Positions 16,374 through 40,031 of a stretch of 64,000 nucleotides of DNA are shown here, piece by piece. How positions within the stretch are numbered: position 1 is the stretch's first letter; each line of letters opens with the position of its first letter. The stretch covers positions 124,758-188,757 of the forward strand of contig CAYXED010000004.1 of the NCBI GenBank assembly GCA_964463965.1, given 5' to 3'. This DNA is from an uncultured Nitrospiraceae bacterium. Lineage in GTDB: Bacteria; Nitrospirota; Nitrospiria; Nitrospirales; UBA2166. The notes under the pieces are model-generated. The model was not told the DNA's origin. It worked only from the letters and a program-made list of their open reading frames with translations, and did not search any database. A program made the translations under genes and the position numbers.

Positions 16374-16455
16374 CGTTACTTATTTTTGCTCTTGTCCCAT
16401 AGCCTCTTTTTTGTACCCCTTTCTGAGGCATGGCAAAAAACATTGGGAGCTTTAG

Positions 16456-25921: not shown

Positions 25922-27688
25922 GTGATAGCACAAAATAGCGTTATGTGCAGACTTTTACTCTCCGCTGCCGTATTGAGCTTTTTATTGGTGGCGGGTTGTA
26001 TTGAGGGTGAGCAAGGCCCAGCAGGCCCAGCAGGAGCCACAGGAGCCACAGGAGCTACTGGCGTTGGGCTTCCAGGCCCAGCAGGATCCCCTGGAACACC
26101 AGGAATTCAGGGCCCAGCAGGCGCTGCGGGCGCTGCGGGCAGCACAGGCGCTGCGGCACCGCTTGCAGCGGGTACAGCGGCAATCTCAGGAAAGCTTATG
26201 AAGGGGCCGATCTCAGGGGCAACGGTAACTGTAAAGGGTTCTGGAGCTGGTTGTACAACTCTCGCGAGTACTCAAAGTGGGGCCCCGCTCACATGTAATA
26301 TTGCTGTAGGAAACCTTGCGTCGACTGCGGTGAGTTTGGCAGATGGTACTTACACCGCTACCATCAATTCCTCGTACACTGGTCCTATCATTGTTGAGGC
26401 GGTTGGTGGAACATATGTTAACGAAGTTGATGGTACTACTGAGACTGGGCCGGGGGCCACAACCCCGTTGCGTGCAGTGGTTGCCACTGCTCCTACGGTG
26501 GGAACGACCGCTACAGTGAATCTTACACCGTTGACCACTATGGCGGCAGGCAGAATTTTCTCCCAGACCGGTGTCTTGGCTATTCCAGCTACCACTATCA
26601 CGTCTGCGACCACTCTGGTGCAGAGCATGTACGGTATTACTAATATTAATGCAGAACCGATTGACGTGAATGCAGCTCTTCCGGCTGGCTCAACTGTGCA
26701 GACGCAGCAGTATGGGCTTCTTACCGCAGCGTTTTCTCAACAGGCTGCCACGTTAGCGATTGCAAACCCGCTTGATTTCCTGAATGCCGTTGTGAATGAC
26801 TTTAATGACGGTGTCCTGGATGGAAAAGTTGCGGCGTCAACAGCCATTATCCCGCTAGGAGCGACGGCGGCTTTATTGTCCACTGCAGCAGCAAATGATC
26901 TCTCGACAGCTATGACCAATTTCACAGTGGCCAGTGCAGCGAGAAATCTTGCTGGCGTGGCCGTGGATACAACTGTAGCAGCCACAGTAAATGCTGCGGA
27001 TGAGACTTCGATAGCAAACAGTAAGTTGACCTTTACAACGGTTGCCAATGGAATCACCTTGACAGATGCCGTCAATAGTCGTGCACAGTTGATCAGCACT
27101 GTCACCGGTACGACAGCCAACGCAGCAGCGGTTGCTACTATGACGGCAGCTAGTGTCAAAGTCGTTGTTCCGTTTGCCGTTGTTGAGGGTTCGGTTGCGA
27201 CGACAGTTCCGTTTAGCGTGACGATTTGTCCGACTGCAGCGCTCAATTCTGTGACGTGTAGTACGACTGATAAGCGTAAAATGACGGTGACGTTGAGTAA
27301 ATTGACGCTTACCCCATCAGGTAATTCGGTGATTGCATCGATTCCAACTGATTCGACTGTAAACTACTCGGGAGCTACAGATACCAATGGAACGGCGGTG
27401 GCAGCGCTTGCGACAGCACTCGTTCCTACGACGATTTTCACGACGTCGACCACATTGCCAAATCAACTGACCTTTGATCCTAATGCGCTCAAAACGCAAT
27501 TGGCTGCAACGTCTGTGGCTGCGTTTGACGCCGTGGTCACAACCGGAAACTGGACCTACTCGGTTGCGCCGGGAGTAACGACGTATTATAGGACTCCAGG
27601 TGTGGCGCTAACTTGCACAGCAGCGGATGTTACTGCTGCAGCTTGTAAGCAGACTACGCTTATTCAAGGACCTGTAAACACGAGTTAA
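25922..27688 (+). CDS. Collagen-like surface lipoprotein 1 (Ala/Thr-rich)
   Basis: RBS GGAGG; lipobox LVAG|C; 16 Gly-X-Y triplets with one break; SGK..KGPI domain; no known family recognised for the remainder. Confidence 0.85.
   Translation: MIAQNSVMCRLLLSAAVLSFLLVAGCIEGEQGPAGPAGATGATGATGVGLPGPAGSPGTPGIQGPAGAAGAAGSTGAAAPLAAGTAAISGKLMKGPISGATVTVKGSGAGCTTLASTQSGAPLTCNIAVGNLASTAVSLADGTYTATINSSYTGPIIVEAVGGTYVNEVDGTTETGPGATTPLRAVVATAPTVGTTATVNLTPLTTMAAGRIFSQTGVLAIPATTITSATTLVQSMYGITNINAEPIDVNAALPAGSTVQTQQYGLLTAAFSQQAATLAIANPLDFLNAVVNDFNDGVLDGKVAASTAIIPLGATAALLSTAAANDLSTAMTNFTVASAARNLAGVAVDTTVAATVNAADETSIANSKLTFTTVANGITLTDAVNSRAQLISTVTGTTANAAAVATMTAASVKVVVPFAVVEGSVATTVPFSVTICPTAALNSVTCSTTDKRKMTVTLSKLTLTPSGNSVIASIPTDSTVNYSGATDTNGTAVAALATALVPTTIFTTSTTLPNQLTFDPNALKTQLAATSVAAFDAVVTTGNWTYSVAPGVTTYYRTPGVALTCTAADVTAAACKQTTLIQGPVNTS
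26006..26155 (+). repeat. Collagen Gly-X-Y coding repeat
   Basis: 9-bp period units such as GGCCCAGCA and GGAGCCACA. Confidence 0.9.
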
Positions 27689-27734
27689 TATAAGGTTCTA
27701 TTGACAGCCCGGGTATTGGGCGAGACTTATCAAT

Positions 27735-27775
27735 CGAGGGGCTCACTCTTTTATGGAGTGAGCCCCTCGTTGTTT
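27735..27775 (+). terminator. Intrinsic terminator
   Basis: Perfect 14-bp stem CGAGGGGCTCACTC/GAGTGAGCCCCTCG, loop TTTTATG, then TTGTTT. Confidence 0.85.
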
Positions 27776-27820
27776 ATCACCAGTTGACAGACAGAATAGA
27801 GTTGCGTATGAGAAGTCGTT

Positions 27821-29560
27821 ATGAGTACTAGATTGAAAATTATGTTAACTGGCCTGCTTGTGCTCCTGACCGTTACTCCTGGAGTGACATGGGCAGGAAA
27901 GATAAAAGTTGTGCCACTACAAAACCCCAACCCTCAGATAATCTCTTGGTTTGGTTGGTCAGTCCAATCTGTTGGTGACTTGAATGGTGACGCAGTCCCT
28001 GATTTGGCGGTGAGCGCACCTCAGCAGTCGGTGAGCGGCATTGCTCAGCAAGGGACGGTACGCATTTTTTCAGGAGCCGATAGAACCTTTCTTTTTACGT
28101 TAGATAGCCCCGTATCTGGGTTTGGCGCGATCTTTGGAGAAGCAATACGCGCAGTGGGTGATGTAAATGGTGATGGACGCCCTGATATTCTGGTCGGTGC
28201 ACGTCTTCAGAGTATTGATGGAAATGATGGGCAAGGTCAGGCGTATGTGTTTTCTGGTATGGATGGGAGCTGGTTAGGAGTGACATTAAAGGCCCCTATT
28301 CCTCAGGGAGGGGCATTTTTTGGAGCGGCATTAGCAACAATCAATGATCAAAATCAAGATGGAAAGCGGGATGTTATCGTTGGTGCTCCTCAGCAGTCAT
28401 TTGGGGACAATCAAAGTGAAGGTGCGGTGTTTGTGATGTCACCGGTAAATGGGCAATTGCTTTCGATTCTCTTGCATCCTAACCCTCAAACTAGGGCCTC
28501 ATTTGGCTTTGCCGTCGAATCACTTGGTGACGTTAATGGGGACGCGGTAACAGACTTTGCTGTTTCAGCCCCTTTCCAAATAGTGGAGGGACGTCCTTCT
28601 CAGGGACAGGTATACGTGTTCTCAGGTGCGAACAGGCAACGGTTGTACACGCTTAATACTCCAGAACCAATCCCAAGTGCGCGTTTTGGCTTTGCCGTCG
28701 CTGCAATGGGAGATGTGAATAACGATGGTATTGGCGATATTCTTGTTGGAGCCCCTACGGCCGATCTTCCATCCATTCGCAACGCTGGACGAGCGTTTAT
28801 CTCTTCGGGTGCAGATGGGACAGTTTTGCACGTCCTTAATGATCCATCTCCAGTAGAAAATGGGATGTTCGGGGCAGCACTTGCCTCGCCAGGTGATTTT
28901 GATGGGGATGGGGTTACAGATGTTGCGATTGGCGCTCCAGCGCCGGTAAGCAGTAGTCAGGGAGTATTTAGCACTGGGGAGGTGTTGCTGTTTAGCGGAG
29001 CCACGGGCAACCATTTGCTGACCGTGAATGATCCTTCGCCTGAATCGGGATCGACCTTTGGTTTTTCGATAGTAGGAGCGGGAGACGTTGATAAGGATGG
29101 AGTCTCCGACTTGTTAATTGGGGCGCCATTTCATGACGTTACTGTTGATGGCACGGTGGTAGAATCGGTAGGCAATGCCTTTGTTTTTAGGAAACTGTCA
29201 CCCGACCTCAAAGGGAAAATTATTGAAGTCGTGAATACGACAGATGTATCTGGGCAAGATCGTTTATTCTTCACGGTGGAAGTGAAAAATAAAGGGACAG
29301 TCAAAACGACTGTGCCATTTAGGATCAAAGCTCATATTTCAAATGACTCTGTTTACGATGGTGGAAAGATTGACCCAAAGCTCGAAAAATGGAAAATATC
29401 GCAACCATTGCTCCCCGGAGAAAAAGTGGTTCTTGATGGGGCGGTAGCATTTGATGAATCTGTAGCTGGAAAGTTTTTTATTTTGAGGGTAGATCCTAGT
29501 AAAAAAATCAAGGAAGGTAAGGAGAAGAACAACACAAAGAGTATCAGAATCGTCCGCTGA
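27821..29560 (+). CDS. Secreted FG-GAP (integrin-alpha-like) 7-blade propeller + CARDB-like domain
   Basis: Signal peptide; seven FG...D[NDK]xDG...GAP-type repeats with Ca-binding loops; C-terminal PDL...V.N.G...E..E.NN domain. Confidence 0.9.
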   Translation: MSTRLKIMLTGLLVLLTVTPGVTWAGKIKVVPLQNPNPQIISWFGWSVQSVGDLNGDAVPDLAVSAPQQSVSGIAQQGTVRIFSGADRTFLFTLDSPVSGFGAIFGEAIRAVGDVNGDGRPDILVGARLQSIDGNDGQGQAYVFSGMDGSWLGVTLKAPIPQGGAFFGAALATINDQNQDGKRDVIVGAPQQSFGDNQSEGAVFVMSPVNGQLLSILLHPNPQTRASFGFAVESLGDVNGDAVTDFAVSAPFQIVEGRPSQGQVYVFSGANRQRLYTLNTPEPIPSARFGFAVAAMGDVNNDGIGDILVGAPTADLPSIRNAGRAFISSGADGTVLHVLNDPSPVENGMFGAALASPGDFDGDGVTDVAIGAPAPVSSSQGVFSTGEVLLFSGATGNHLLTVNDPSPESGSTFGFSIVGAGDVDKDGVSDLLIGAPFHDVTVDGTVVESVGNAFVFRKLSPDLKGKIIEVVNTTDVSGQDRLFFTVEVKNKGTVKTTVPFRIKAHISNDSVYDGGKIDPKLEKWKISQPLLPGEKVVLDGAVAFDESVAGKFFILRVDPSKKIKEGKEKNNTKSIRIVR

Positions 29561-29585
29561 GTACCGAAGCGGTTATATTGGCCAC

Positions 29586-30662
29586 CTACCTGTCTTTGGT
29601 ATTGCCAATCACGCTACCGTGAGTTTGCTCGCCGCGGGATAATTTTTGTCTGACAGCCGCGCTTTTCAAATAGTATAGTATATTTTCTTGGTTCATGAGG
29701 ACGCGGAGTAATGTGTCGCCTAAAAATCCTGTGATGAGAGTTGATACACCGAGCAACGTAAATGACCCTCCGACAAAGCCTGCCCAAATGTGAGGGGAAA
29801 ATGCTTGTGTTTCGATGTAATGGATTCCGAGAAAACCAAGAAAGCCCAATCCTGTTGCGAGAAAGAGAAAGCTCACTGCAACAAAAAATCTTAGCGGGTG
29901 GTAAGCAATAAACGCACGAATCATGATTTGCAATGTTTGCACGGCGTATCTTGTAATGCTCGATGTCATTCTTGATGTACCGTGCTCACGGGTTCCTTTC
30001 ACGCGGACTGGCACTTCAATAATTGCTAATCGCTTTACGACGAGATCAAGAAAAGTTTCCTGCGTATAGGTAAAGCGGCCAAACAGGGTCATGCGGAGCA
30101 TCGCTTCTCGTGAGAATGCTCGAAAGCCACAGGAAACGTCATGAAAAGATTTGCCAGTTAACAGCCTAACTGTTAGTGCGAGCCCACGGTTTCCCCAATA
30201 TTTAATCAATGGCATTTTTGGCACAAGTTCCGGATTGATAAAACGTGACGCTGTGGCCATGTGAGCGCTGCTTTTCACAATAGGGGCCACAAGAGTGGGG
30301 ATGTCTGTTGGATCAAACTGACCATCTCCATCTATGTGGATCAGGACGTCGATTCCACGTATCAGCGCAACGCTAACTGCTTCACGAAATGTTATGCCGA
30401 GACCAAGGTTAGTGGTGTGGCTGATCACTTCAGCTCCAGCTGCACGTGCTCGATTGACGGTTTCATCAGATGACCCGTCATCAATGACAAGTACTTGTAT
30501 GCTGCTGATTCCTGGAATATTTTTTGGAATGTTTTTAATCACCCTACCAACAGTCTGTTCTTCGTTTAGGCAAGGAATGACGACGAGTGCTGATTTGTAG
30601 TATTGATCATGGAGTGATGGTGAAGCTATATTTTCCGTGAATTGTTCGGATTGGAGTGACAT
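29586..30662 (-). CDS. GT2 glycosyltransferase, polyprenol-phosphate-sugar synthase (DPM1/GtrB)-like
   Basis: IPCLNEE, IDDGSSD, IDGDGQFDP (DxD), ASRF, DVSCGFRAF; two C-terminal TM helices. Confidence 0.85.
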   Translation of the reverse strand: MSLQSEQFTENIASPSLHDQYYKSALVVIPCLNEEQTVGRVIKNIPKNIPGISSIQVLVIDDGSSDETVNRARAAGAEVISHTTNLGLGITFREAVSVALIRGIDVLIHIDGDGQFDPTDIPTLVAPIVKSSAHMATASRFINPELVPKMPLIKYWGNRGLALTVRLLTGKSFHDVSCGFRAFSREAMLRMTLFGRFTYTQETFLDLVVKRLAIIEVPVRVKGTREHGTSRMTSSITRYAVQTLQIMIRAFIAYHPLRFFVAVSFLFLATGLGFLGFLGIHYIETQAFSPHIWAGFVGGSFTLLGVSTLITGFLGDTLLRVLMNQENILYYLKSAAVRQKLSRGEQTHGSVIGNTKDR

Positions 30663-30923
30663 TTTACTGTTCGCGGTGTGGAGAGACCTAACGCCTTAAG
30701 TGATACTTGTTTTGAGTTAGTCTGGCTTGACCATTGTGAATACCAAGTATAGTGATCATACCTCACGTGTTGTCGTAATGACAGCATATTTTGCTAAACA
30801 GGAAACAGGAAGCAAGAAAAAGAGGGACGAGGTTTCTAAAAACTCATTACGGATGCTGTGGGAAGTTTCCCGTACATGTGAGGATGTTTTTGGTATGAGT
30901 TGTCAAAAAGGGTGTAGCTTCTG

Positions 30924-33080
30924 ATGAGTGTTTCTTTCCTCTATTGGGCTAGGCCGCTTTCATTGCTTGTGTTTGTGGGGGCAATATATTGGAGCTCACT
31001 TAACGGTCCTTTTGTTTTTGACGATTGGCATGTCATTGCTGAAAATCCATCGATTCGACAACTGAACAACATTCCGCTTTTCTTCGTTGATCAAACTCAT
31101 TTCTCGATATTAAGTGGCAATCAAGGATATCGCCCGATCTTTTTAACATCGATGGCCTTGTGTTGGTGGGCTGGTGGTGGTGCGCCCTTGCCTTTTCACC
31201 TACTTAGCATGGTGCTTCACGCCAGTAATGCATTTTTACTGATACTGATTTGTTGTGTGGCATTCACAAAATCCAGTGATCCTAAAGGAGGACTATCCAG
31301 CTCCTCTGTAGAGTGGGGAGCGTGGTTATCGGGGGCTCTATTTGCGCTCCATCCGCTCGCTACAGAGTCAATCAATTACGCCAGTTCTCAATCGGTACCT
31401 CTCGCAAGTGCATTTTTTCTCATAAGTCTCTACCTGTTTATGGCAGTCTATAGCGGGGCGGAATCCTTTTCTAGGAGGGCAAAATGGGTGTATCTTTGCG
31501 TATGCTACGTGTCCTATGGGCTTGCGCTACTTAGTAAGCCGATAGCTATTTCTCTTCCAGTAATCGTCTTACTTTGGGAGTTTTTGGGGCATTACGTACA
31601 TGAAAGTATCCAGAAGGCGTGGAAGCAATGGTGGAAAGCACATTGGAAGAGATTTGTCCCATATGTGGTTATTTCAATGGCATACTTATGGGTGCGGTCT
31701 GCCGTGGTGTTGGGGCCGTTTGGCGGCCCAGAGTTTATAAGGCCAATTTTTGATCACTACCTGACTCAGACCAAAGCACTAGTTTTTTACTACCTCAAGC
31801 TCTCACTCTTGCTAGGAAAGCAAAACGTCGATGTGGTGTATTCGATTTCGAACTCCCTATTTGATCTACAAGTTATCGCCGCACTTGTTTTTCTGTGCGG
31901 AATCATTTGGACTTTAGTTTTGTTTAGGCATCAACGTAATGTTGTTTTCTGGTCGCTGTGGTTTCCTGTCTGTCTTTTTCTCACTACTTATGGGGTAGTT
32001 CTTCGCCAAGTTGTAAATGAGCATCGGGTATATCTGTCTCTTGCCGGACTGTGTGCCTTGTTTGGATTTCTTGCCGTCAAGGGTTGGGAGCAATTGCAAT
32101 CTAGTGGTGTTGTATTTGGGCAGCGTAAAGTTTTGTCGTATGCAGCTTCTTTTGGAGTTGTGATTGGTCTTATGGGGATGGCTTACCATGCCAGTGCACG
32201 AAGCAATGTATGGGAATCACGATTAACGTTGTGGGGAGACGCAGCACGCAATGGGGGTACATGGCGAGCGCACATGAACTATGGGATTCAATTGCGAGGA
32301 ATGGGGCGCTTACAGGAGTCGGCAGAGTGGCTTGAAAGGGCTGTGGAAAATGGACCTTACGCTTTTGCACACATTAATTTGGGATTAACGTATTTTGAGT
32401 TGGGGGAAACCGATGAAGCTTTGGGACATTTGTATAGTGCAACTATGGGGTGGCCGATGGCTCCAGAGCCATGGTTTTATCTTGGGTACGTTCAGAATAA
32501 AATTGGGGATTATGTGCGAGCTGAATTGAACTACCTTCGCGCACTTAAGCTGAGGCCACGATATCTTACAGCGCTACGAGAATTGGCAGACTTTTATGCT
32601 GCACAAAAACTTCAGGAGGATGAAAGGATCGTGTTGCAGTACATTCTTGCGCTTGATTCGACTCAGTTATGGGCTAGGAGTCGTATCGGTGAGTTTGAAA
32701 ATTTTCAGTCATCTCTGGATTCTACGGCATCTGCCCGTCTATTTACGCAAGCGTTGTTGTTGCAGCATTTGGGTAGTTCAGATTTAGCAATCCAACGATA
32801 TGAGAGACTTTTGTTACATGAACCAGGTCATAGGCAGGGAACGTTTAATCTTGCCTATGCGTATATGTTGCAGGGTGGTTCTGGTTCCCTGATTAAAAGT
32901 GCTGGATTGTTTAAGAAAGTGCTAGAAATTGAACCGTTGTATGTGGAAGCGCTCCACCATCTGGCAACAGTATTATGGAAGGTAGGAGAAAAAGAAGAAG
33001 CAATAGTGTACGATATGAAGTACTTGGAAAAGGGCCAGCATGTTGACTTGAGGAAGCTTTCAAAAACTCGCCTTCAGTAG
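30924..33080 (+). CDS. TMTC-like GT-C membrane glycosyltransferase with C-terminal TPRs
   Basis: FVFDD, YRPI, FHLL..LHA.N, LFALHPLATE, EHRVYL, W.....LW, then TPR helices; multiple TM segments. Confidence 0.82.
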   Translation: MSVSFLYWARPLSLLVFVGAIYWSSLNGPFVFDDWHVIAENPSIRQLNNIPLFFVDQTHFSILSGNQGYRPIFLTSMALCWWAGGGAPLPFHLLSMVLHASNAFLLILICCVAFTKSSDPKGGLSSSSVEWGAWLSGALFALHPLATESINYASSQSVPLASAFFLISLYLFMAVYSGAESFSRRAKWVYLCVCYVSYGLALLSKPIAISLPVIVLLWEFLGHYVHESIQKAWKQWWKAHWKRFVPYVVISMAYLWVRSAVVLGPFGGPEFIRPIFDHYLTQTKALVFYYLKLSLLLGKQNVDVVYSISNSLFDLQVIAALVFLCGIIWTLVLFRHQRNVVFWSLWFPVCLFLTTYGVVLRQVVNEHRVYLSLAGLCALFGFLAVKGWEQLQSSGVVFGQRKVLSYAASFGVVIGLMGMAYHASARSNVWESRLTLWGDAARNGGTWRAHMNYGIQLRGMGRLQESAEWLERAVENGPYAFAHINLGLTYFELGETDEALGHLYSATMGWPMAPEPWFYLGYVQNKIGDYVRAELNYLRALKLRPRYLTALRELADFYAAQKLQEDERIVLQYILALDSTQLWARSRIGEFENFQSSLDSTASARLFTQALLLQHLGSSDLAIQRYERLLLHEPGHRQGTFNLAYAYMLQGGSGSLIKSAGLFKKVLEIEPLYVEALHHLATVLWKVGEKEEAIVYDMKYLEKGQHVDLRKLSKTRLQ

Positions 33081-33286
33081 CTGTAGGGGCGCGATTTGTT
33101 TTGTTGTTAACGTTAGGTACTTCAAGAGATTGTTGATTTTATGTGGTGCATTGCATATGAGGTTTGGAGTGGTTTTGTTTTTTGGGGAGACTAGTGGGGT
33201 TTTGTCAGAATCTTTGAGAAGCTAAAATGCGATCTTGTGGGAGGTTGGGGAAAAAATGGAACATGAAAGAAAAACCAAAATTTTCC

Positions 33287-33315
33287 TTGACATGGGGCGT
33301 ATCGATATAGATAAT
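33287..33315 (+). promoter_or_regulatory. Strong sigma70 promoter for collagen-like lipoprotein 2
   Basis: TTGACA-N17-GATAAT; second TTGACA-N17-CAAAAT at 33373-33401. Confidence 0.6.
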
Positions 33316-33548
33316 GCGCTAGCCGTCGAGGCGGGTGGCGTGCGCGATTTGCATCCACGGGCAATTTTTTTCTTGACAGTGGATGATGCTTAACTCAAAA
33401 TGCGTTCGTCATTTCCTTCGGGCGGCTTGTGCTATGGAAATGAGTGGCCTTAGAAAATGAACGGGGGGGAAATGGGAAAGGAACATGAGGTTCAACCATG
33501 TTGTTAGGTAACAGAGAATGGAATCATCAAATAAGGAGGATTGAACCA

Positions 33549-35633
33549 ATGGGGAGAATGAGAGCGACGGGGAAAACCGGACGAGCATCTTCAGGCTTCT
33601 TGCTTGTGCTGGGTGCTGTGGCGCTTGGTTTGGTGCTGGTAGGATGTTCTGGTGAAGATGGGTTGGTTGGTCCTGCAGGGCCGGCCGGACCTCCAGGACC
33701 AGCTGGAGCAGTAGGACCGGCGGGTGCTGATGGTGCCGCAGGGGCAGCAGGACCAGCGGGTGCACGTGGTGCAGCAGGACCAGCAGGACCAGCAGGACCA
33801 TCGGGTCCAGCAGGTGCTGATGGATCCGCAGGATCCGCAGGAGCTGCAGGAGCTGCAGGAGCTGCAGGATCTGGCACTGTTGTTCCGGGTGCTGCGTTAG
33901 CATCAGGAAAGGCCATTAAAGGGCCTATCGTTAATGGAACTGTTGTTCTGTCTATTTATGCGGACAACAATGGGGGAACCTGCCCAACTGTCGCCCCAAC
34001 GACAGTAGTGGGTACTTCAGGTGCCCTTGAGCGTTGCACTATTGGTGCTTCTGGAACGACGGACGCAAATGGTGGTTTCGCGCTGACCATTCCAGATGAC
34101 CAGTCTTCGTTGGTTGGTCCGCTTCACGTGGAAGTCTTTAACGGGACATTCATCGACGAAGTGACCGGTTTGACCAACACTGGGCCGCAGGGACCTGGAA
34201 TTAACTCGAAGCTGCGTACTCTCGTTCCGCTTGAGTACTTGGATGATCTGAGACCAGCCGGTGGTGCTGCGAACGTTGTCACTGTGGCTATTAGCGCCTT
34301 GACTGAGTTGGCCGCGACAAGAGCTCTTGGGGCTGGTACTGGAACCCCAACCGCTGGTCAGGCGCATGCTGCCAATACTCAAACAGCATCGCTCTTTTCT
34401 TTGGACGATATTGATATTGCCAGAACGCTTCCTTCGGATATCACGAATCCTGCTTCATCTTCTGATTCCGATGAATCAAAGCGTTATGGTATTGTCAATG
34501 CCGCTTTCTCTCAGCTAGCTCAGGTCGTCGAGGGTGACCAAGACGTCCTGGATATCGTGAGAGTTGTTGGTCTTGACTATCAAGATGGTATTTTTGATGC
34601 TAAGGGACGTCTTACGAGTCCTTCTGATGCTGCTCTGACGTTACCGGGTGCTTCCAGGAAGATTCCGGCGGCTACCATGGGGCCAACATTGGCAGCAGCT
34701 ATTGAAACCATTCAGTCGAGTTCGGTAAACAATACCGGCACCACGCTTGATGCAGCGGCTGTAGCGACCGTTCGTGGCGCACATCTCGCTTCAAATAACA
34801 TTCTGACTTTGACCGATAACGGCTGTATCGTGGCAGATGCACGGTTGCCTTCTGGTTCGTTTATCTTTACGCGTGCTATCTCTACGGGTATTGCGACACT
34901 GCGTAACGCATTTGGTGGTAATGGTTCGGTGGATGGCTCTGGTTTTCGCGCCGTTGGTACCGACAATAACGCAAATACCTTTTTCTCTGCGCAGTCTGTG
35001 AATATTCGTTGTGTCTTGGCAAACTTCTCACAGGGTGCCACCGCGCTTGGTGATCGTGGTTCTGGACAGATTACCGTCAGTCCTCGGTTTACCATTCGTG
35101 ATGCGACAGCTGACGATGCCACCAATAGTCTCGCGGCTGCAGCGCACGGAACCGGTTCTAAGAGAACTGTCACCGGTACTTTGTCTGCTATGACAATCAA
35201 CAACAACCCAACGGGTGTAACTGGGTCTCAGCCTGAGGGTACGACTATCACAATTACCGGTATGCGTGATGTCAATGGCAGCACCATCAGAATTGACACG
35301 CCACTTCCGCCATCATCGATCCTGAACCAGGGCGGAAATGTTGTTCGGTTTGTTCCGAATGCGTTGATTGGTGCTCTAAGTGCCAAGGGATTATCGCAAT
35401 TTGATACTCTGGCGAAGGACGGTATTTTTGTCTATGAAGTGACACCGGGCTTCCCAGTATACTTGCATGCCAATGCTGGCAGCACGACTGAGAGCAATGC
35501 ACCACCGGCGGCCCGTCCACAGACCTGTAATGGTAATCCGGATGGAACGACGACTACGAGTGGTACTGGTTTCAGTGGTACATCGTGTGTCAGTGTTACA
35601 ACAGTCAGAGGATCTTTGGAGGTCAAGCAGTAA
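33549..35633 (+). CDS. Collagen-like surface lipoprotein 2 (paralog of 25922-27688)
   Basis: RBS AAGGAGGA 8 nt before ATG 33549; lipobox LVG|C; 25 uninterrupted Gly-X-Y triplets; SGKAIKGPI domain. Confidence 0.85.
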   Translation: MGRMRATGKTGRASSGFLLVLGAVALGLVLVGCSGEDGLVGPAGPAGPPGPAGAVGPAGADGAAGAAGPAGARGAAGPAGPAGPSGPAGADGSAGSAGAAGAAGAAGSGTVVPGAALASGKAIKGPIVNGTVVLSIYADNNGGTCPTVAPTTVVGTSGALERCTIGASGTTDANGGFALTIPDDQSSLVGPLHVEVFNGTFIDEVTGLTNTGPQGPGINSKLRTLVPLEYLDDLRPAGGAANVVTVAISALTELAATRALGAGTGTPTAGQAHAANTQTASLFSLDDIDIARTLPSDITNPASSSDSDESKRYGIVNAAFSQLAQVVEGDQDVLDIVRVVGLDYQDGIFDAKGRLTSPSDAALTLPGASRKIPAATMGPTLAAAIETIQSSSVNNTGTTLDAAAVATVRGAHLASNNILTLTDNGCIVADARLPSGSFIFTRAISTGIATLRNAFGGNGSVDGSGFRAVGTDNNANTFFSAQSVNIRCVLANFSQGATALGDRGSGQITVSPRFTIRDATADDATNSLAAAAHGTGSKRTVTGTLSAMTINNNPTGVTGSQPEGTTITITGMRDVNGSTIRIDTPLPPSSILNQGGNVVRFVPNALIGALSAKGLSQFDTLAKDGIFVYEVTPGFPVYLHANAGSTTESNAPPAARPQTCNGNPDGTTTTSGTGFSGTSCVSVTTVRGSLEVKQ
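33651..33875 (+). repeat. Collagen Gly-X-Y coding repeat
   Basis: 25 triplets, including (GCAGGAGCT)x3 at 33837-33863. Confidence 0.9.
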
Positions 35634-35691
35634 GCCAAAGATCTGCTAAGCTGATCGGCGTTTCTTTAGGTCGGTTAGTTTAAGAACATCG

Positions 35692-35730
35692 ATGGGCCTA
35701 CCGTGTTATGCGGTAGGCCCATTTGTTTTT
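35692..35730 (+). terminator. Intrinsic terminator
   Basis: Perfect 12-bp stem ATGGGCCTACCG/CGGTAGGCCCAT, loop TGTTATG, then TTGTTTTT. Confidence 0.88.
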
Positions 35731-36013
35731 ACACTCCACTAAGAACTGTCACAAATTCCTCTACTTTTGCGCTCTCTGTATTAATTCTGTATCCAGATTG
35801 ATACGACAATCTAGGAAAATGTACTAAAAGAGCTACAGTGGCCAGGTTTTGATAGGTGGAGTTTTCTTTCCCCTGCGGGACTGACTCGTATTCTTCTTTG
35901 TTAATACGGTATTTTAAGGTTGCAATGTGTAAAACTATATACATATTTGAATTGGCATATAATATGCATACATATTGGTCAGTATTTCTTTTTCAAGTAG
36001 AACATTAAATTAG

Positions 36014-36075
36014 AGTGACAAACTTACGACACATTACGACAAAAGTTTGACATTTTATGTGGCACCGCGTATGGT
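36014..36075 (+). promoter_or_regulatory. Sigma70 promoter with four helically phased GACA repeats overlapping -35
   Basis: GACA at 36017, 36028, 36038, 36049; TTGACA(36047)-N17-TATGGT(36070). Confidence 0.55.
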
Positions 36076-36218
36076 AGGCGGACTTGTATATAGGTGGGTA
36101 GGCAATCGGGGGGATGGTCTATCTAAATATTAAGCAATTTGTGGACATGTAAATCATATCGGAGACGTATGGCAGATGTGCTTTTATCTGGCCAGCCTGA
36201 TTTCTAGGAGGAGTAACG

Positions 36219-39200
36219 ATGCGAAGTAGATGGATTGTGGGTAGATCGCTGTGTATGTGGGCAATTGGAGTGGCCCTTTTGTTGGGCTCGGTGAGTACTG
36301 TCGTAGGGCAGACCTTTACAGCAACTGGGAGTTTGTCATCTTCACGTACTTTCCACACTTCGACTCTTCTGACTGATGGTCGAGTACTTATTGTTGGTGG
36401 TGGAAGTACTGCTACAGCGGAATTATATGATCCAACTATTGCAGGGTTTCTCCAGGCAGGAACTTTGGCAACAGCACGGACGCTTCATAGTGCAACCTTG
36501 TTAATCAATGGTAAGGTGCTTGTTGCGGGTGGTGGAACATCTGGAGCCGCCACAGCTGAACTCTACGATCCCTTAACGGCATCGTTTTCGGTAACGGGTT
36601 CAATGCTTTCTGACCGAAGCAATCATACTGCTACGTTGTTACCAAGTGGTGACGTGTTAATTCTTGGTGGTATGAGTGCAGATGGCCGCGCGCTTGCCAC
36701 AGCGGAGCTTTATGATCCAGATACGGAAACTTTTGTCTCGAGTGGCGTGATGTCTACTGCCCGTATGTTCCATGCGGCGTCGCTACTTTCAGATGGGAGG
36801 GTATTGATTGCTGGAGGTTTTGATAACTCGGGCAGCACCGTTGGCACTGCAGAGGTTTTTGATCCTGTAACACGAACGTTTTCAAGTACAGGAAGCATGA
36901 CGGCAGCACGTAGTAATCACACTGCCACGTTGTTATCAAGTGGACAGGTGGTAGTTGCCGGAGGTTTAGGCACGGGAAGTATTACTTTGAATACGAGTGA
37001 AGTCTATGATCCGACAACAGGATCGTTTACTGCGACAGGAACAATGAGTAGTACTCGAAGTCACCATACAGCAACACGTTTAGCAAATGGGCAAGTGTTG
37101 CTTGTTGGAAGTCTGGAAGGAACAGCTAGCGCAGAAATTTTTGATCCAACGACGTCAACTTTTTCTCCTACTGTTAGTTTAGTCTCTGCACGGTCATTTC
37201 AAGGGGCTACTCTGTTGTTGAGTGGACAGGTGTTAATTACAGGAGGTGGGCAGTCGGGGACGACCGCTGAGCTTTTTGATGCACCTAATGTGTTTGAGCC
37301 TTCAGTTGTTAGCGTGCTTGGTCCGCTTGAAGGAGGATTTACCTCAACAATCAGCAACATGGGTGCAGCACGGCAGAGCCACACAGCCACTCTCTTATCA
37401 AGTGGGGGGGTACTTGTCTCAGGAGGCTTGGGTGGCGGAGGCAGTACTGCGGAGGTGTATGATTCACCTACAGAGAGTTTTGTGCCGGTCGGAAGTATGA
37501 CTACGTCTCGCACAGAACATACGTCAACTGAGTTGCGAGATGGGCGTGTTCTGATTGTTGGCGGTGCAGTTGGTGATGACACACCAGCCGAATTATTTGA
37601 TACTTCGACAGACACCTTTACAGGCACTGGTCTGATGGTCACCGAACGGCGACGGCACACTGCCTCGGCGTTATCAGATGGCCGGGTGTTAATAGCCGGC
37701 GGACGTAGTCAAGATGGCGTGGTGCTTGCATCGTCTGAAATCTATGATCCATCTACGGAATCGTTCGGTGAGGGCGATAGTATGGATGCGGCTAGAAGTT
37801 TGCATACTGCCACGACGCTATCTGATGGGACCATTCTTGTTGTCGGGGGAAATGACTCCGATGGTTTTCCAGTACGAAGTGCTGAAATTTTTGACCCTGT
37901 GACTGGGATATTCTCTTCGACGGGTAGTCTAGGCACTGCGCGTGCTCGCCATACCGCTACATTATTGGAAACCGGTGAGGTTCTTGTGACGGGTGGGGTT
38001 GGTGCTTCAGTAAGTGCAGAGGTCTTCAATCCAAGTACAGGGCAGTTCACTCAGGTTGGCAGTTTGGTAGAGGCAAGAGAAAATCATACTGCAACACGTC
38101 TTTCGAGTGGGCATGTTCTTTTAATCGGTGGAAACTTAAGTCTAGATGCTGAGTTCTACAATCCGTCTACAGCACAGTTTGAGGCGGTTGTGAATATGAT
38201 GACTGATTCTCGTCAAATGCACACGGCAACGTTACTACAAACCGGACGAGTGCTCGTCGCAGGAGGTATTGGAATTCTTGAGACTGCAGAGCTTTTCGCT
38301 CGTAATACGCCTGACGTTAATCTGATAATTACAAAGCTACGCGTTAAACCAAAACAGTCTGGGAACAAGCTAAAGGTTATATTACAAGCTCAAAACTCTG
38401 GTACGGAAGTTGCGGTTGGACCACTGGTAGCTTCCTTGTTCTTGTCGGTAGATGAAATTGTAGATGAGCAGGATGCTCTCCTTCAGACGATTTCTGTCGA
38501 TAGTATTGAGGGTGGGAATCAGGCGAAGCTCAAGTTTAAAGTAAAAGGCCTTGGGAGTATTGGTGGAATGTATGCAGTCGTCAAACTTACTGCTGCTGCT
38601 GGAGAGGAGAATCTTCAGAATAATACAGTCTCAGGGCTTATTGAGGAGTTGCCTCAGTCTGTCATTGTTACTCGTTCTGGAGACGGCTTTGGCACGGTTA
38701 CCAGCAGTCCTGATGGAGTAGCATGTGGAGAAATTTGTATTGCAAGCTTTGCTCCGAACGAAAATTTAGTTTTAACAGCAACAGCTGACCAAGGCTCAAC
38801 CTTTGGAGGATGGGGTGGAGACGAGTGCGACATTTCGTTGATCGCAGAAGACTTCAAGTCTGGAACATGTGAGTTTCTTCCATTGCTCAAGGAGCGGTCA
38901 GTAAATGGGCTCTTTACACTTGACTTCTCGCCAGCCGTAACGCTTGGATTGACCGTGATTGGTTCTGGTAATATTTCGAGTATACCTGGAAACTTGTTAT
39001 GCGGAACGACGGATCAGCCGGTGTGTAATGGTACCTTTGACCAGGGCAGTGTCGTGGTTCTTACGGCAACGCCAGATCCAGGAAATGAATTCATTTCTTG
39101 GAGTGGTGGTGGGTGTGGAGGCGCCGGACTTTGCTCTGTGACTATGGGTCAGAGTCATTCCGTGGTTGCTGAGTTTGCGGTGAGTACAGCCACGACGACA

Positions 39201-40031
39201 CCGACTACAACCACGACGACACCGACCACAACCACGACGACACCGACCACAACCACTGCGTCATTGACCATCACAACAAGTGGTACTGGCACTGGATCGA
39301 TTGTGAGTGTACCTACAGGGATTTCATGTGGTCTGGATTGTACAGAAACGTACACTATTGGAACTAATGTTTCACTAACCGCTACTGCAGCTGCTGGATC
39401 AACTTTCACTGGATGGACGGGTGGAGGCTGTGTCGGAACCGGATTGTGTGTTGTTTCGATGTCAGCGTTGACAACCGTCACAGCCCAATTTACAAGCAGT
39501 GTAGGTACAACCACTAACCTGACGGTGACTGAAATACGGGAAACCGCAGGTGCAGGAACTATCACAGGGACTGGTATCAACTGTGGAAATGGTGGAGTGT
39601 TGACGGACTGTACGCAGACATTCGATACCAACACCAGCGTGGTTCTGACTGCGACTGTAGGTGCGGACACTACCTTTGTCGGATGGGTAGGCGGTGGATG
39701 TTCGGGGACCTCAACGTGTACGGTGACAATGGATCAGAATCAGGAAGTTCGAGCGGTCTTTGAAAAAAATGAGGTCGATGCAACGTCAAGTCTTCTCAAT
39801 AAGACTTTGGGCGTTGGAATGTCAGGTTTAGGCGCTGGGACCGTAACGGGACTCGATATTAATTGTGGTTCTGACTGCGCACAAAAATACCCAGCAGGCT
39901 CAGTAGTTGTTCTGACAGCAACTCCAGGAGCAGGATCCACGTTTGGTGGCTGGAGTGGGCAGTGTAGCGGCCTAGATCAGTGTGTTGTCATCATGGACGC
40001 TTCTGCAATTGTCAACGCAGTATTTAATTAG
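36219..40031 (+). CDS. Large secreted Kelch (14 repeats) + CARDB-like + InlB B-repeat (x5) protein with Thr-rich linker
   Basis: Signal peptide; 14 R..H[TS]ATLL..G.VL..GG-type repeats; five LTAT...F.GW.G.C repeats; RBS AGGAGG. Confidence 0.9.
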   Translation: MRSRWIVGRSLCMWAIGVALLLGSVSTVVGQTFTATGSLSSSRTFHTSTLLTDGRVLIVGGGSTATAELYDPTIAGFLQAGTLATARTLHSATLLINGKVLVAGGGTSGAATAELYDPLTASFSVTGSMLSDRSNHTATLLPSGDVLILGGMSADGRALATAELYDPDTETFVSSGVMSTARMFHAASLLSDGRVLIAGGFDNSGSTVGTAEVFDPVTRTFSSTGSMTAARSNHTATLLSSGQVVVAGGLGTGSITLNTSEVYDPTTGSFTATGTMSSTRSHHTATRLANGQVLLVGSLEGTASAEIFDPTTSTFSPTVSLVSARSFQGATLLLSGQVLITGGGQSGTTAELFDAPNVFEPSVVSVLGPLEGGFTSTISNMGAARQSHTATLLSSGGVLVSGGLGGGGSTAEVYDSPTESFVPVGSMTTSRTEHTSTELRDGRVLIVGGAVGDDTPAELFDTSTDTFTGTGLMVTERRRHTASALSDGRVLIAGGRSQDGVVLASSEIYDPSTESFGEGDSMDAARSLHTATTLSDGTILVVGGNDSDGFPVRSAEIFDPVTGIFSSTGSLGTARARHTATLLETGEVLVTGGVGASVSAEVFNPSTGQFTQVGSLVEARENHTATRLSSGHVLLIGGNLSLDAEFYNPSTAQFEAVVNMMTDSRQMHTATLLQTGRVLVAGGIGILETAELFARNTPDVNLIITKLRVKPKQSGNKLKVILQAQNSGTEVAVGPLVASLFLSVDEIVDEQDALLQTISVDSIEGGNQAKLKFKVKGLGSIGGMYAVVKLTAAAGEENLQNNTVSGLIEELPQSVIVTRSGDGFGTVTSSPDGVACGEICIASFAPNENLVLTATADQGSTFGGWGGDECDISLIAEDFKSGTCEFLPLLKERSVNGLFTLDFSPAVTLGLTVIGSGNISSIPGNLLCGTTDQPVCNGTFDQGSVVVLTATPDPGNEFISWSGGGCGGAGLCSVTMGQSHSVVAEFAVSTATTTPTTTTTTPTTTTTTPTTTTASLTITTSGTGTGSIVSVPTGISCGLDCTETYTIGTNVSLTATAAAGSTFTGWTGGGCVGTGLCVVSMSALTTVTAQFTSSVGTTTNLTVTEIRETAGAGTITGTGINCGNGGVLTDCTQTFDTNTSVVLTATVGADTTFVGWVGGGCSGTSTCTVTMDQNQEVRAVFEKNEVDATSSLLNKTLGVGMSGLGAGTVTGLDINCGSDCAQKYPAGSVVVLTATPGAGSTFGGWSGQCSGLDQCVVIMDASAIVNAVFN
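39190..39256 (+). repeat. 21-bp tandem repeat (3+ copies) encoding a TTTPTTT linker
   Basis: CCACGACGACACCGAC(T/C)ACAA x3 + CCAC. Confidence 0.92.

What the first reader, a model, noticed from the sequence alone, without database searches (positions are those of the whole stretch)
29586..33080. Divergent GT2 / TMTC-like pair with intact catalytic motifs
Seen: head-to-head genes 261 bp apart. The GT2 keeps DxD, and the membrane protein keeps the first-loop DD, YRP, HP..TE and E.R.YL motifs plus TPRs. Established: these motifs characterise TMTC mannosyltransferases. Inference: an active bacterial TMTC with its own donor synthase; pipelines would likely label it only as a TPR protein.
Basis: partly seen in the sequence, partly recalled or inferred. 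Interest (0 to 1): 0.62.

Follow-up and report, generated by a model that had tools for sequence, protein, structure and literature searches.

The report
Bacterial TMTC-like glycosyltransferase with donor synthase
A Nitrospirales bacterium carries, back to back, a gene that probably loads a sugar onto a membrane lipid carrier and a gene for a TMTC-like membrane enzyme that probably passes that sugar to targets outside the cytoplasm; the enzyme belongs to a very large, uncharacterised bacterial family, so this is a tidy but not surprising example.

Summary
ORFs at 29586-30662(-) and 30924-33080(+) lie 261 bp apart, and all the cited motifs are present and conserved.

**GT2.** It aligns over its full length with ArnC, DPMS and AglJ-type polyprenyl-phosphate glycosyltransferases. 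It has DDGSSD, DGDGQ and two C-terminal TM helices.

**718-aa protein.** It has an 11-helix membrane domain plus about 8 TPRs. The AF2 model has pLDDT 93. Its Foldseek hits are GT-C enzymes only: ArnT, STT3, PMT, Emb and Aft.

**Relation to TMTC.**
- The membrane domain has no Pfam hit of its own.
- It is clearly homologous to bacterial proteins that carry the TMTC DUF1736 domain (hhalign E 1.6e-78).
- It keeps TMTC motifs M1, the YRP core of M2, the Lys of M4, the Asp of M5 and a shifted M7.
- It lacks M3, the Glu of M4, the Trp of M5 and M6.
- It has Leu at a position that is Pro in 47 of 48 relatives.
- The family is huge: 23,696 representative clusters.

**Gene context.**
- The orthologous GT2 is adjacent in 6 of 8 close-clade loci across several phyla.
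- Those loci usually also carry a methyltransferase and a putative flippase. In this genome both lie on another contig.
- The pair is a roughly 3.7-kb insertion into a surface-protein island that same-genus genomes have without it.

**Verdict.** This is a Gtr/Arn-style periplasmic glycosylation module. Sugar and acceptor are unproven.

The parts
29586..30662 (-). GT2-family polyprenyl-phosphate glycosyltransferase candidate (358 aa): N-terminal cytoplasmic GT-A domain with DDGSSD 61-66, DGDGQ 111-115 and D175..R181, plus two C-terminal hydrophobic helices (about 260-278 and 296-314).
   Evidence: Pfam PF00535 9e-20. NCBIfam full-length but sub-threshold matches to AglJ 1.9e-34, PpgS 4e-19, Dol-P hexose transferase, ArnC and PgfS. 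PDB phmmer full-length to ArnC 9bhc/8vxh 3.5e-11 including the TM region, and to PfDPMS 5mlz 1.4e-9. Hydropathy and motif positions.
30663..30923 (.). 261-bp divergent intergenic region between the two genes.
   Evidence: The sigma-70 consensus scan found no more sites than shuffles did (7 against 6.5 expected), so no promoter is assigned.
30924..32258 (+). GT-C-fold membrane domain (residues 1-445, 11 long helices). Conserved residues sit in the predicted periplasmic loops: D33 and D34 (EL1), Y69-R70-P71 (EL1), H143-P144..T147-E148 (EL2), K205 (EL3), D303 (EL4), E366/R368/Y370 (EL5).
   Evidence: AF2 pLDDT 93.2, pTM 0.93. Foldseek PDB top 16 hits are all GT-C: ArnT 5f15 at 9e-6, STT3, Pmt4, AglB, Pmt1-2, EmbB, AftA. 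Conservation. hhalign to the PF08409-positive clade: prob 100, E 1.6e-78.
32259..33080 (+). C-terminal TPR domain (residues about 446-718, 16 helices, about 8 TPR-like repeats), predicted periplasmic.
   Evidence: Pfam TPR_1, TPR_2, TPR_16 and others. PDB phmmer to consensus TPR and OGT TPRs. AF2 helices.
29561..33266 (.). Block specific to this genome. The GT2/GT-C pair is inserted between the FG-GAP gene and the second collagen-like gene, compared with same-genus genomes G002 and G004.
   Evidence: tblastn synteny. blastn of the intergenic regions: relatives match the window up to about 29496 and again from 33267. GT-C, GT2 and the membrane partner were not found in G002 or G004.
27821..29560 (+). 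Context, possible acceptor: secreted FG-GAP x7 beta-propeller with a CARDB domain.
   Evidence: Pfam. An orthologue is present in G002 and G004, which lack the GT pair.
25922..27688 (+). Context, possible acceptor: collagen-like lipoprotein, 24% Ser+Thr, paralogue of 33498-35633.
   Evidence: Pfam Collagen. BLASTP 30% identity, 6e-29. Composition.
33498..35633 (+). Context, possible acceptor: second collagen-like lipoprotein.
   Evidence: 62-63% identical orthologues in G002 and G004.
36219..40031 (+). Context, possible acceptor: 1270-aa Kelch propeller / InlB B-repeat protein with a Thr/Pro linker (80% Ser+Thr over 30 residues at about residue 992).
   Evidence: Pfam. Composition.

Best explanation
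The two genes are the donor-making and the transferring halves of a periplasmic, lipid-carrier-dependent glycosylation pathway, built on the logic of GtrA/B/X, ArnC/ArnT and Ppm1/Pmt. Step 1 (inferred from homology): the GT2 sits on the cytoplasmic face and transfers one sugar from a nucleotide sugar to polyprenyl (undecaprenyl) phosphate. Step 2 (inferred, weakest): the lipid-linked sugar is flipped, probably by the conserved 313-aa polytopic protein that accompanies the pair in relatives and here lies on contig C13 next to a class-I methyltransferase. That methyltransferase may modify the sugar or its lipid-linked form. Step 3 (fold shown, chemistry inferred): the GT-C domain uses the first-loop Asp pair (D33, D34) as catalytic and acceptor-binding residues, and K205, R368 and Y370 to hold the lipid phosphate. 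It transfers the sugar to an acceptor presented by the periplasmic TPR domain. By homology with TMTC and PMT enzymes, and because TPRs bind proteins, the acceptor is most likely Ser/Thr of exported proteins. The sugar is undetermined; a hexose is likely and mannose is possible.
For: GT2: full-length similarity, including the C-terminal TM helices, to ArnC, and also to DPMS, AglJ and PpgS, with the DxDxQ motif. GT-C: confident AF2 model whose structural neighbours are all lipid-linked-donor GT-C enzymes. It is homologous to PF08409/TMTC-type proteins. Its conserved polar residues all fall in loops that the helix order places on one side. About 15 K/R lie in the short loops of the other side against 3 on the motif side, read from the sequence and the helices. 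Linkage: the orthologous GT2 (60-63% identity) is adjacent in 6 of 8 close-clade loci from Nitrospirales, Planctomycetota and an unclassified MAG. GT2, GT-C and the membrane partner are all present in this genome and in G001, and none of the three was found in G002 or G004. This genome has only one such GT-C and one such GT2. ManC (GDP-mannose synthesis) is present. The three-component logic is described in PMC11127046.
Against: The protein fails Pfam PF08409 and PMT_2. It lacks TMTC motifs M3, the Glu of M4, the Trp of M5 and M6. L297 replaces a Pro kept in 47 of 48 relatives. The flippase assignment is weak: the C13 protein has no Pfam hit of its own, an orthologue hits PF03706 at E 0.011, and hhalign to PF03706-positive proteins gives prob 67. 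The candidate acceptors next door exist in same-genus genomes that lack the module, and they have no homologues near the pair in other phyla. One relative (L012) carries a UDP-GlcNAc 2-epimerase in the module, which argues against assuming mannose.
Confidence: 0.6

Rival explanations
1. Same machinery, but the acceptor is not a protein. The GT-C would decorate lipid A or LPS core, an exopolysaccharide or peptidoglycan, as ArnT, GtrX or Emb/Aft enzymes do. The TPR domain would dock onto envelope-assembly proteins rather than onto a substrate protein.
For: ArnT is the best structural match. Some relatives have sugar-polymer-type neighbours: a GT4 in L014 and a UDP-GlcNAc 2-epimerase in L012. The neighbouring surface proteins are not co-inherited with the module. 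From general knowledge, TPRs also occur in polysaccharide export scaffolds such as BcsC, AlgK and PelB.
Against: ArnT is also the closest solved structure for true TMTCs (PMC7801869), so that match does not discriminate. The nearest sequence-defined family (PF08409) is a protein O-mannosyltransferase family. No polysaccharide gene cluster lies around the pair in the window.
Confidence: 0.25
2. The two genes are neighbours but not partners. The GT2 would make a glycolipid or a soluble product for another pathway, and the GT-C would draw its donor from elsewhere.
For: The N-terminal half of the GT2 also matches glucosyl-3-phosphoglycerate synthase (4e-11). No NCBIfam equivalog cut-off is reached.
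Against: Adjacency is conserved across phyla while the other neighbours change. The two genes moved together as one block in this genome. They share presence and absence in the genus. The full-length matches, including the TM helices, are to lipid-phosphate glycosyltransferases only. This genome has no other GT2 of this type.
Confidence: 0.07
3. The GT-C domain is catalytically dead, and the protein acts as a membrane-anchored TPR scaffold.
For: L297 in place of a Pro kept in 47 of 48 relatives. The M3 Arg/Asp and the M4 Glu (the proposed metal ligand in TMTC models) are lost.
Against: D33, D34, R70, H143, P144, K205, D303, R368 and Y370 are all retained. The M3 and M4 changes are shared by the whole close clade, which still keeps its donor synthase. 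That pattern fits a functional variant, not decay.
Confidence: 0.05

Closest known systems
Eukaryotic TMTC1-4 protein O-mannosyltransferases (CAZy GT105; Pfam PF08409 TMTC_DUF1736)
   Same: N-in, 11-helix GT-C domain followed by extracytoplasmic TPRs. First-loop DD, YRP, HPxxTE, the EL3 Lys, the EL4 Asp and E/R/Y before TM10 are shared. ArnT is the nearest solved fold for both (PMC7801869). Homology runs through PF08409-positive bacterial proteins.
   Different: No PF08409 hit. M3 RxD is QSV, M4 KE(T/Q)xxT is KPIAIS, M5 DW is DV, M6 PxxP is absent, and M7 is EHRVY rather than ERxxY. The lipid carrier would be bacterial, not dolichol. Donor sugar and acceptor are unknown. No direct comparison with eukaryotic sequences was possible here.
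Bacterial DUF1736 + TPR proteins, annotated 'DUF1736 domain-containing protein', 'tetratricopeptide repeat protein', or by JGI 'protein O-mannosyl-transferase'
   Same: Same architecture and clear homology: hhalign prob 100, E 1.6e-78 over 591 columns. They belong to the same very large family.
   Different: The window's protein belongs to a small divergent clade of about 15 representative clusters at E<1e-64, with its own motif variants and a conserved GT2 / methyltransferase / membrane-protein module. The held paper library yielded no experimental study of any bacterial member.
ArnC / ArnT (undecaprenyl-phosphate L-Ara4FN synthase plus lipid A aminoarabinose transferase)
   Same: GT2 with C-terminal TM helices paired with a GT-C enzyme. 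ArnC is the best PDB sequence match to the GT2, and ArnT is the best fold match to the GT-C.
   Different: ArnT has no TPR domain and acts on lipid A. Sequence identity is 12-13% in the fold alignment. No ArnA, ArnB or ArnD genes are present nearby.
Three-component periplasmic glycosylation systems: GtrA/GtrB/GtrX, CsbB/GtcA/YfhO, and the C. youngae GT136 system (PMC11127046)
   Same: A polyprenyl-phosphate sugar synthase, a flippase and a GT-C transferase.
   Different: The candidate flippase here is a roughly 313-aa PF03706-like protein rather than a GtrA/SMR or MATE protein. It is encoded on another contig. A methyltransferase is part of the module in relatives. The transferase carries TPRs.
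Actinobacterial Ppm1/Pmt and Streptococcus mutans Pgf (PgfS/PgfM1/PgfE/PgfM2) protein O-glycosylation systems (named from general knowledge; PgfS is also an NCBIfam hit)
   Same: A lipid-phosphate sugar made by a GT2 and then used by GT-C-type membrane proteins to O-glycosylate exported, Ser/Thr-rich or collagen-binding surface proteins.
   Different: Different GT-C families (GT39 for Pmt). They have MIR domains or no extra domain instead of TPRs. The similarity of the GT2 to PgfS is weak (3.9e-8, far below the cut-off).

Membership tests
TMTC / GT105 (Pfam PF08409) | Match to Pfam PF08409 (TMTC_DUF1736) at or near the gathering score | tested here: not met
   No Pfam family matches residues 1-445 at E<=10. 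Only 2 of 20 aligned relatives match PF08409, best 4.9e-8.
TMTC / GT105 (Pfam PF08409) | Homology to PF08409-positive proteins over the whole GT-C domain | tested here: met
   phmmer hit to P0112 (PF08409-positive) at E 1.5e-14 with 95% coverage. hhalign A4 against A5: prob 100, E 1.6e-78.
TMTC / GT105 (Pfam PF08409) | GT-C(A) fold with about 11 TM helices and C-terminal TPRs on the extracytoplasmic side | tested here: met
   AF2 pLDDT 93 with 11 long helices then 16 TPR helices. Foldseek hits are GT-C only. The side of the membrane is inferred from the K/R distribution, not measured.
TMTC / GT105 (Pfam PF08409) | Motif M1, DD in EL1 | tested here: met
   D33 in 48 of 48 and D34 in 47 of 48 homologues.
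TMTC / GT105 (Pfam PF08409) | Motif M2, SHKSYRP in EL1 | tested here: inconclusive
   Only Y69-R70-P71 is kept; the preceding residues are GNQG.
TMTC / GT105 (Pfam PF08409) | Motif M3, RxD in EL2 | tested here: not met
   Q156-S-V158 in the query and its close clade. It aligns to GRAE of the PF08409-positive clade.
TMTC / GT105 (Pfam PF08409) | Motif M4, KE(T/Q)xxT in EL3 | tested here: inconclusive
   K205 is invariant and S210 stands for the Thr, but the Glu is Pro206 (P in 22 and E in 18 of 48).
TMTC / GT105 (Pfam PF08409) | Motifs M5 (DW in EL4) and M6 (PxxP in TM9) | tested here: not met
   D303 is kept (33 of 48) but is followed by Val. TM9 reads WFPVCLFLTTY, with one Pro only. The nearby P297 is Leu in the query.
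TMTC / GT105 (Pfam PF08409) | Motif M7, ERxxY before TM10 | tested here: inconclusive
   E366-H-R368-V-Y370. E and Y align, and the Arg is displaced by one position.
TMTC / GT105 (Pfam PF08409) | Transfers mannose from a polyprenol-phosphate mannose donor to Ser/Thr of a folded protein domain | not testable with these tools
   No biochemical data. ManC is present in the genome, which permits mannose but does not show it.
Polyprenyl-phosphate glycosyltransferases (GT2; DPMS/GtrB/ArnC/AglJ type) | GT-A domain with a DxD(xQ) motif | tested here: met
   PF00535 at 9e-20. D111-G-D113-G-Q115 aligns to DADLQ of ArnC.
Polyprenyl-phosphate glycosyltransferases (GT2; DPMS/GtrB/ArnC/AglJ type) | C-terminal transmembrane helices that align with those of a solved member | tested here: met
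   Alignment to ArnC spans residues 23-322, including its TM region. Hydropathy peaks at 260-278 and 296-314.
Polyprenyl-phosphate glycosyltransferases (GT2; DPMS/GtrB/ArnC/AglJ type) | Reaches the curated cut-off of a named equivalog, which would assign sugar specificity | tested here: not met
   Best is AglJ at 119 bits against a cut-off of 325. PpgS, ArnC and PgfS are all far below their cut-offs.
Three-component periplasmic glycosylation system | A dedicated flippase for the lipid-linked sugar | tested here: inconclusive
   A conserved 313-330-aa polytopic protein lies next to the pair in L001, L003 and L010, and on C13 in this genome. PF03706 matches are weak for this group: none for the C13 protein itself, 0.011 for the L001 orthologue, and hhalign prob 67. 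The proteins at the same position in L011 and L014 match PF03706 above the cut-off.

The most novel reading that the evidence does not exclude
The module is a bacterial protein O-glycosylation system in which a TMTC-like enzyme puts a single, possibly methylated, hexose on Ser/Thr of exported surface proteins with folded domains or Thr-rich linkers. In this lineage the transferase and its donor synthase moved as one block into the island that encodes those proteins (collagen-stalk lipoproteins, an FG-GAP/CARDB propeller, and a Kelch protein with a Thr/Pro linker). If so, it would be a compact prokaryotic model of the TMTC pathway that could be rebuilt in E. coli.
Probability: 0.2. Interest if true: 0.7.

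Novelty: new variant of a known kind. Interest (0 to 1): 0.42.

Why it matters
TMTC enzymes matter in human development; PMC7801869 cites a TMTC3 mutation that causes cobblestone lissencephaly. The PDB copy searched here holds no TMTC structure. PMC7801869 states that their own transferase activity had not been demonstrated at that time. Tens of thousands of bacterial relatives are annotated only as TPR proteins, and I found no experimental work on any of them. A small clade that keeps its own donor synthase, and in relatives also a methyltransferase and a putative flippase, in one compact module gives a defined set of three or four genes. That set could be rebuilt in a laboratory host to find the sugar, the acceptor and the role of the TPRs, and to obtain a structure. 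The finding itself is a well-supported annotation, not a surprise.

Tried and rejected
- Pfam and a PDB profile search on the membrane domain alone found nothing.
- The first Foldseek search with the full-length model was swamped by TPR proteins. I refolded the N-terminal domain alone.
It was repeated with the close-clade alignment A4.
- I could not obtain named eukaryotic TMTC sequences. The bridge search from P0112 returned only bacterial proteins in its top 120. No tree with eukaryotic TMTCs was built, and the link to TMTC rests on PF08409 and the published motif table.
- Model coordinates are not exposed to the Python box. Clustering of the conserved residues in 3D could not be measured.
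- The promoter and terminator scan was no better than shuffles.
- No direct or inverted repeats flank the inserted block, so no mobile-element mechanism can be named.
- I searched the genome for the UDP-GlcNAc 2-epimerase seen in L012 and found none.
- The island proteins have no homologues near the pair in other loci.
- I considered that the higher G+C of 26-40 kb marks foreign DNA. This was not tested. The collagen-like genes there encode Ala- and Gly-rich proteins, which may explain it, and the island is shared within the genus.
Full report
**Observation.** The window holds two head-to-head ORFs exactly as reported: 29586..30662 on the minus strand (358 aa) and 30924..33080 on the plus strand (718 aa). 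They are separated by 261 bp. In the GT2 these are DDGSSD 61-66 and DGDGQ 111-115. In the membrane protein they are FVFDD 30-34, GYRP 68-71, HPLATE 143-148 and NEHRVYL 365-371, followed by TPRs. In an alignment of 48 homologues that share 20-52% identity with the query, F30, D33, N41, P144, K205 and Y290 are invariant. D34, R70, P71, H92, H99, H143, R368 and Y370 are kept in at least 90%. The motifs are therefore real conserved features.

**The GT2.** Pfam gives Glycos_transf_2 at 9e-20.
- NCBIfam matches run over the full length. The best is the archaeal dolichyl-phosphate hexosyltransferase AglJ (1.9e-34, residues 27-323). PpgS, a haloarchaeal Dol-P hexose transferase, ArnC and PgfS follow. 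None comes near its curated cut-off.
- Against solved structures, the best match is ArnC (9bhc and 8vxh, 3.5e-11). That alignment runs from residue 23 to 322 and includes the membrane helices of ArnC. Pyrococcus DPMS also matches (1.4e-9).
- In that alignment DDGSSD, D-x-D-x-Q and D..C..R line up with the ArnC motifs.
- Two hydrophobic helices lie at about 260-278 and 296-314.
- The match to glucosyl-3-phosphoglycerate synthase covers only the N-terminal half.
- I read this as a polyprenyl-phosphate glycosyltransferase of undetermined sugar specificity.

**The membrane protein: fold.** Pfam sees only TPRs. Residues 1-445 match no Pfam family even at E<=10, and no PDB sequence, either alone or as a 20-sequence profile.
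- AlphaFold2 models are confident: the full-length model has pLDDT 93.2 and pTM 0.83, and the membrane domain alone has pLDDT 93.2 and pTM 0.93.
- The models show eleven long helices followed by sixteen TPR helices.
- A Foldseek search with the full model returned only TPR proteins.
- The membrane domain alone returned only GT-C enzymes in its first sixteen hits: ArnT 5f15 (9e-6) and 5ezm, yeast and human STT3, Chaetomium Pmt4, AglB, Pmt1-Pmt2, EmbB and AftA. The TM-score normalised to the query ranged from 0.34 to 0.53.
- No TMTC structure turned up in the PDB copy searched here. ArnT is also the closest solved relative reported for human TMTCs (PMC7801869).

**The membrane protein: topology.** Following the helix order from a cytoplasmic N-terminus, all conserved polar residues fall in the loops of one side. 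The short loops of the other side hold about 15 Lys/Arg against 3, read from the sequence and the helices. This places the DD loop and the TPRs in the periplasm. It is an inference, not a measurement.

**Relation to TMTC.** The query's membrane domain directly finds P0112, a protein that carries Pfam PF08409 (TMTC_DUF1736), at E 1.5e-14 over 95% of its length.
- Of 20 aligned relatives, three match PMT_2 and two match PF08409.
- A search from P0112 found more than 3,000 bacterial PF08409-plus-TPR proteins.
- A profile of the query's close clade aligns to a profile of those proteins with probability 100 and E 1.6e-78 over 591 columns. The alignment covers both the membrane domain and the TPRs.
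- That alignment lets the seven published TMTC motifs (PMC7801869, Table 4) be checked one by one.

| Motif | TMTC form | In this protein |
|---|---|---|
| M1 | DD in EL1 | Kept (D33, D34) |
| M2 | SHKSYRP | Only YRP kept |
| M3 | RxD | QSV |
| M4 | KE(T/Q)xxT | KPIAIS: Lys invariant, Glu (proposed metal ligand) replaced by Pro |
| M5 | DW | DV |
| M6 | PxxP | Absent |
| M7 | ERxxY | EHRVY: Arg shifted by one position |

- Most of these differences are shared by the whole close clade.
- One is not. Residue 297 is Leu (CTA) where 47 of 48 homologues have Pro.
- The protein is therefore TMTC-like in fold, architecture and several key residues. It is a divergent member, and 'intact catalytic motifs' overstates the case.

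**Family size and annotation.** A phmmer search of the membrane domain against 1.84 billion representative proteins gave 23,696 hits at E<=1e-3, 7,765 at E<=1e-10 and 122 at E<=1e-30. About 15 representatives fall in the close clade.
- Sources name these proteins 'tetratricopeptide repeat protein' or 'DUF1736 domain-containing protein'. JGI names some distant ones 'protein O-mannosyl-transferase'.
- Four literature searches found no experimental work on a bacterial member. The only paper in the library that mentions DUF1736 is the human TMTC analysis.

**Gene context in relatives.** Among eight distinct loci of the close clade, an orthologous GT2 (60-63% identical) is adjacent to the GT-C in six. 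The GT2 is more conserved than the GT-C, which is 39-53% identical.
- The six are the window, L001, L003 (the same place as L013), L010, L012 and L014. They come from Nitrospirales, Planctomycetota and an unclassified MAG.
- In the other two loci, one contig ends 2.6 kb upstream of the GT-C, and the other shows no GT2 within 6 kb upstream.
- A class-I methyltransferase and a polytopic membrane protein of about 320 aa accompany the pair in L001, L003 and L010.
- L011, L012 and L014 carry, in the same position, proteins that match PF03706, the MprF flippase-domain family. L011 and L014 match above the cut-off.
- For the window's own version of this membrane protein the PF03706 link is weak. It has no Pfam hit itself. 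Its L001 orthologue matches PF03706 at E 0.011. hhalign to the PF03706-positive proteins gives probability 67 and E 5e-5 over the C-terminal 110 columns, which include a PGGLGVRE motif.
- L012 also has a UDP-GlcNAc 2-epimerase inside the module. This warns against assuming mannose.
- The window's genome lacks that epimerase and has ManC above its cut-off.

**This genome.** The assembly is 1.89 Mb in 18 contigs and 98% complete. It has one GT-C of this family and one GT2 of this type.
- The methyltransferase (65% identical to that of L001) and the membrane protein (58%) lie side by side on contig C13, directly next to LipB and a MutY-like gene.
- In L001 and L010 the order is methyltransferase, membrane protein, GT2, GT-C, a few genes, LipB, MutY-like. 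C13 has the same order without the GT2/GT-C pair, with orthologues at 58-74% identity.
- Same-genus genomes G002 and G004 carry the island as prepilin peptidase, collagen-like 1, FG-GAP, collagen-like 2, Kelch. In them 0.6-0.9 kb separates FG-GAP from collagen-like 2. In this window the gap is 3.9 kb.
- The sequence specific to this window runs from about 29561 to 33266. A conserved element upstream of collagen-like 2 (33267-33385) is retained.
- The pair therefore moved as a unit into a surface-protein island. No flanking repeats explain how.
- Within the genus, GT-C, GT2 and the membrane partner are all present in this genome and in G001. None of the three was found in G002 or G004. G003 is 73% complete and has the GT2 at a contig end. 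This shared presence and absence supports a functional unit, with the caveat that the genomes are few and related.

**Acceptor.** The island genes are plausible targets.
- Two paralogous collagen-like lipoproteins (30% identity, 6e-29) contain 19-24% Ser+Thr.
- There is an FG-GAP/CARDB protein.
- A 1270-aa Kelch / InlB-B-repeat protein has a Thr/Pro linker.
- However, G002 and G004 keep these proteins without the module, and other phyla keep the module without them.
- The link is therefore only positional and recent. The acceptor remains open between exported proteins, which I favour on the TMTC/PMT homology and the TPR domain, and a non-protein envelope component.

**Verdict.** The best reading is a Gtr/Arn/Ppm-Pmt-style lipid-carrier glycosylation module. 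Its transferase is a divergent member of the very large bacterial TMTC-like family. Sugar and acceptor are not determined. It is a new variant of a known kind, of moderate interest, mainly as a compact system that could be rebuilt in a laboratory host to study TMTC-type enzymes.

Noticed in passing
window 31812-31814: Codon CTA gives Leu297 in the GT-C where 47 of 48 homologues have Pro. It is one transition away from CCA. It could be a real substitution or an assembly error in a metagenome-derived genome.
   Followed up: partly
window 29561-33266; G000 contig C13:1888-3546: Compared with relatives, the GT2/GT-C pair has left its place between the membrane-protein gene and LipB and now sits between the FG-GAP and collagen-like genes. 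No repeats or mobile-element genes flank the block.
   Followed up: yes
window 33267-33385: A non-coding element upstream of the second collagen-like gene is conserved with same-genus genomes (89% over 64 nt with G004, 75% over 118 nt with G002). It may be a promoter or regulatory region. Two strong sigma-70-like sites lie at 33287-33315 and 33373-33401.
   Followed up: partly
window about 39192-39281 (Kelch protein residues about 992-1021): A Thr/Pro-rich linker, TTTPTTTTTTPTTTTTTPTTTT, with 80% Ser+Thr over 30 residues. Linkers of this mucin-like kind are often O-glycosylated.
   Followed up: no
window 25922-27688 and 33498-35633: Two paralogous lipoproteins with short collagen G-X-Y stretches after the lipobox (30% identity over 545 aa, E 6e-29). 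Orthologues at 62-63% identity occur in same-genus genomes.
   Followed up: partly
L012:5038-6159 (Nitrospirales chromosome OY820905.2): A UDP-GlcNAc 2-epimerase (PF02350, 6e-52) lies between the orthologous GT2 and a PF03706-like gene. This hints that the sugar in that relative may be an N-acetylhexosamine derivative.
   Followed up: partly
L001:10464-10977 and 16314-16840: Two ParE-toxin / antitoxin pairs flank the region downstream of the GT-C in a related Nitrospirales contig.
   Followed up: no
G001:C127:15411-16421: The match to the orthologous GT2 in the same-genus genome G001 was reported with one in-frame TAA. I did not check whether it is a real disruption or an edge effect.
   Followed up: no
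window 26000-40000: G+C is 0.48-0.52 against about 0.43 elsewhere in the window. The collagen-like genes there encode Ala- and Gly-rich proteins, which may explain it; foreign origin was not tested, but the island is shared within the genus.
   Followed up: partly
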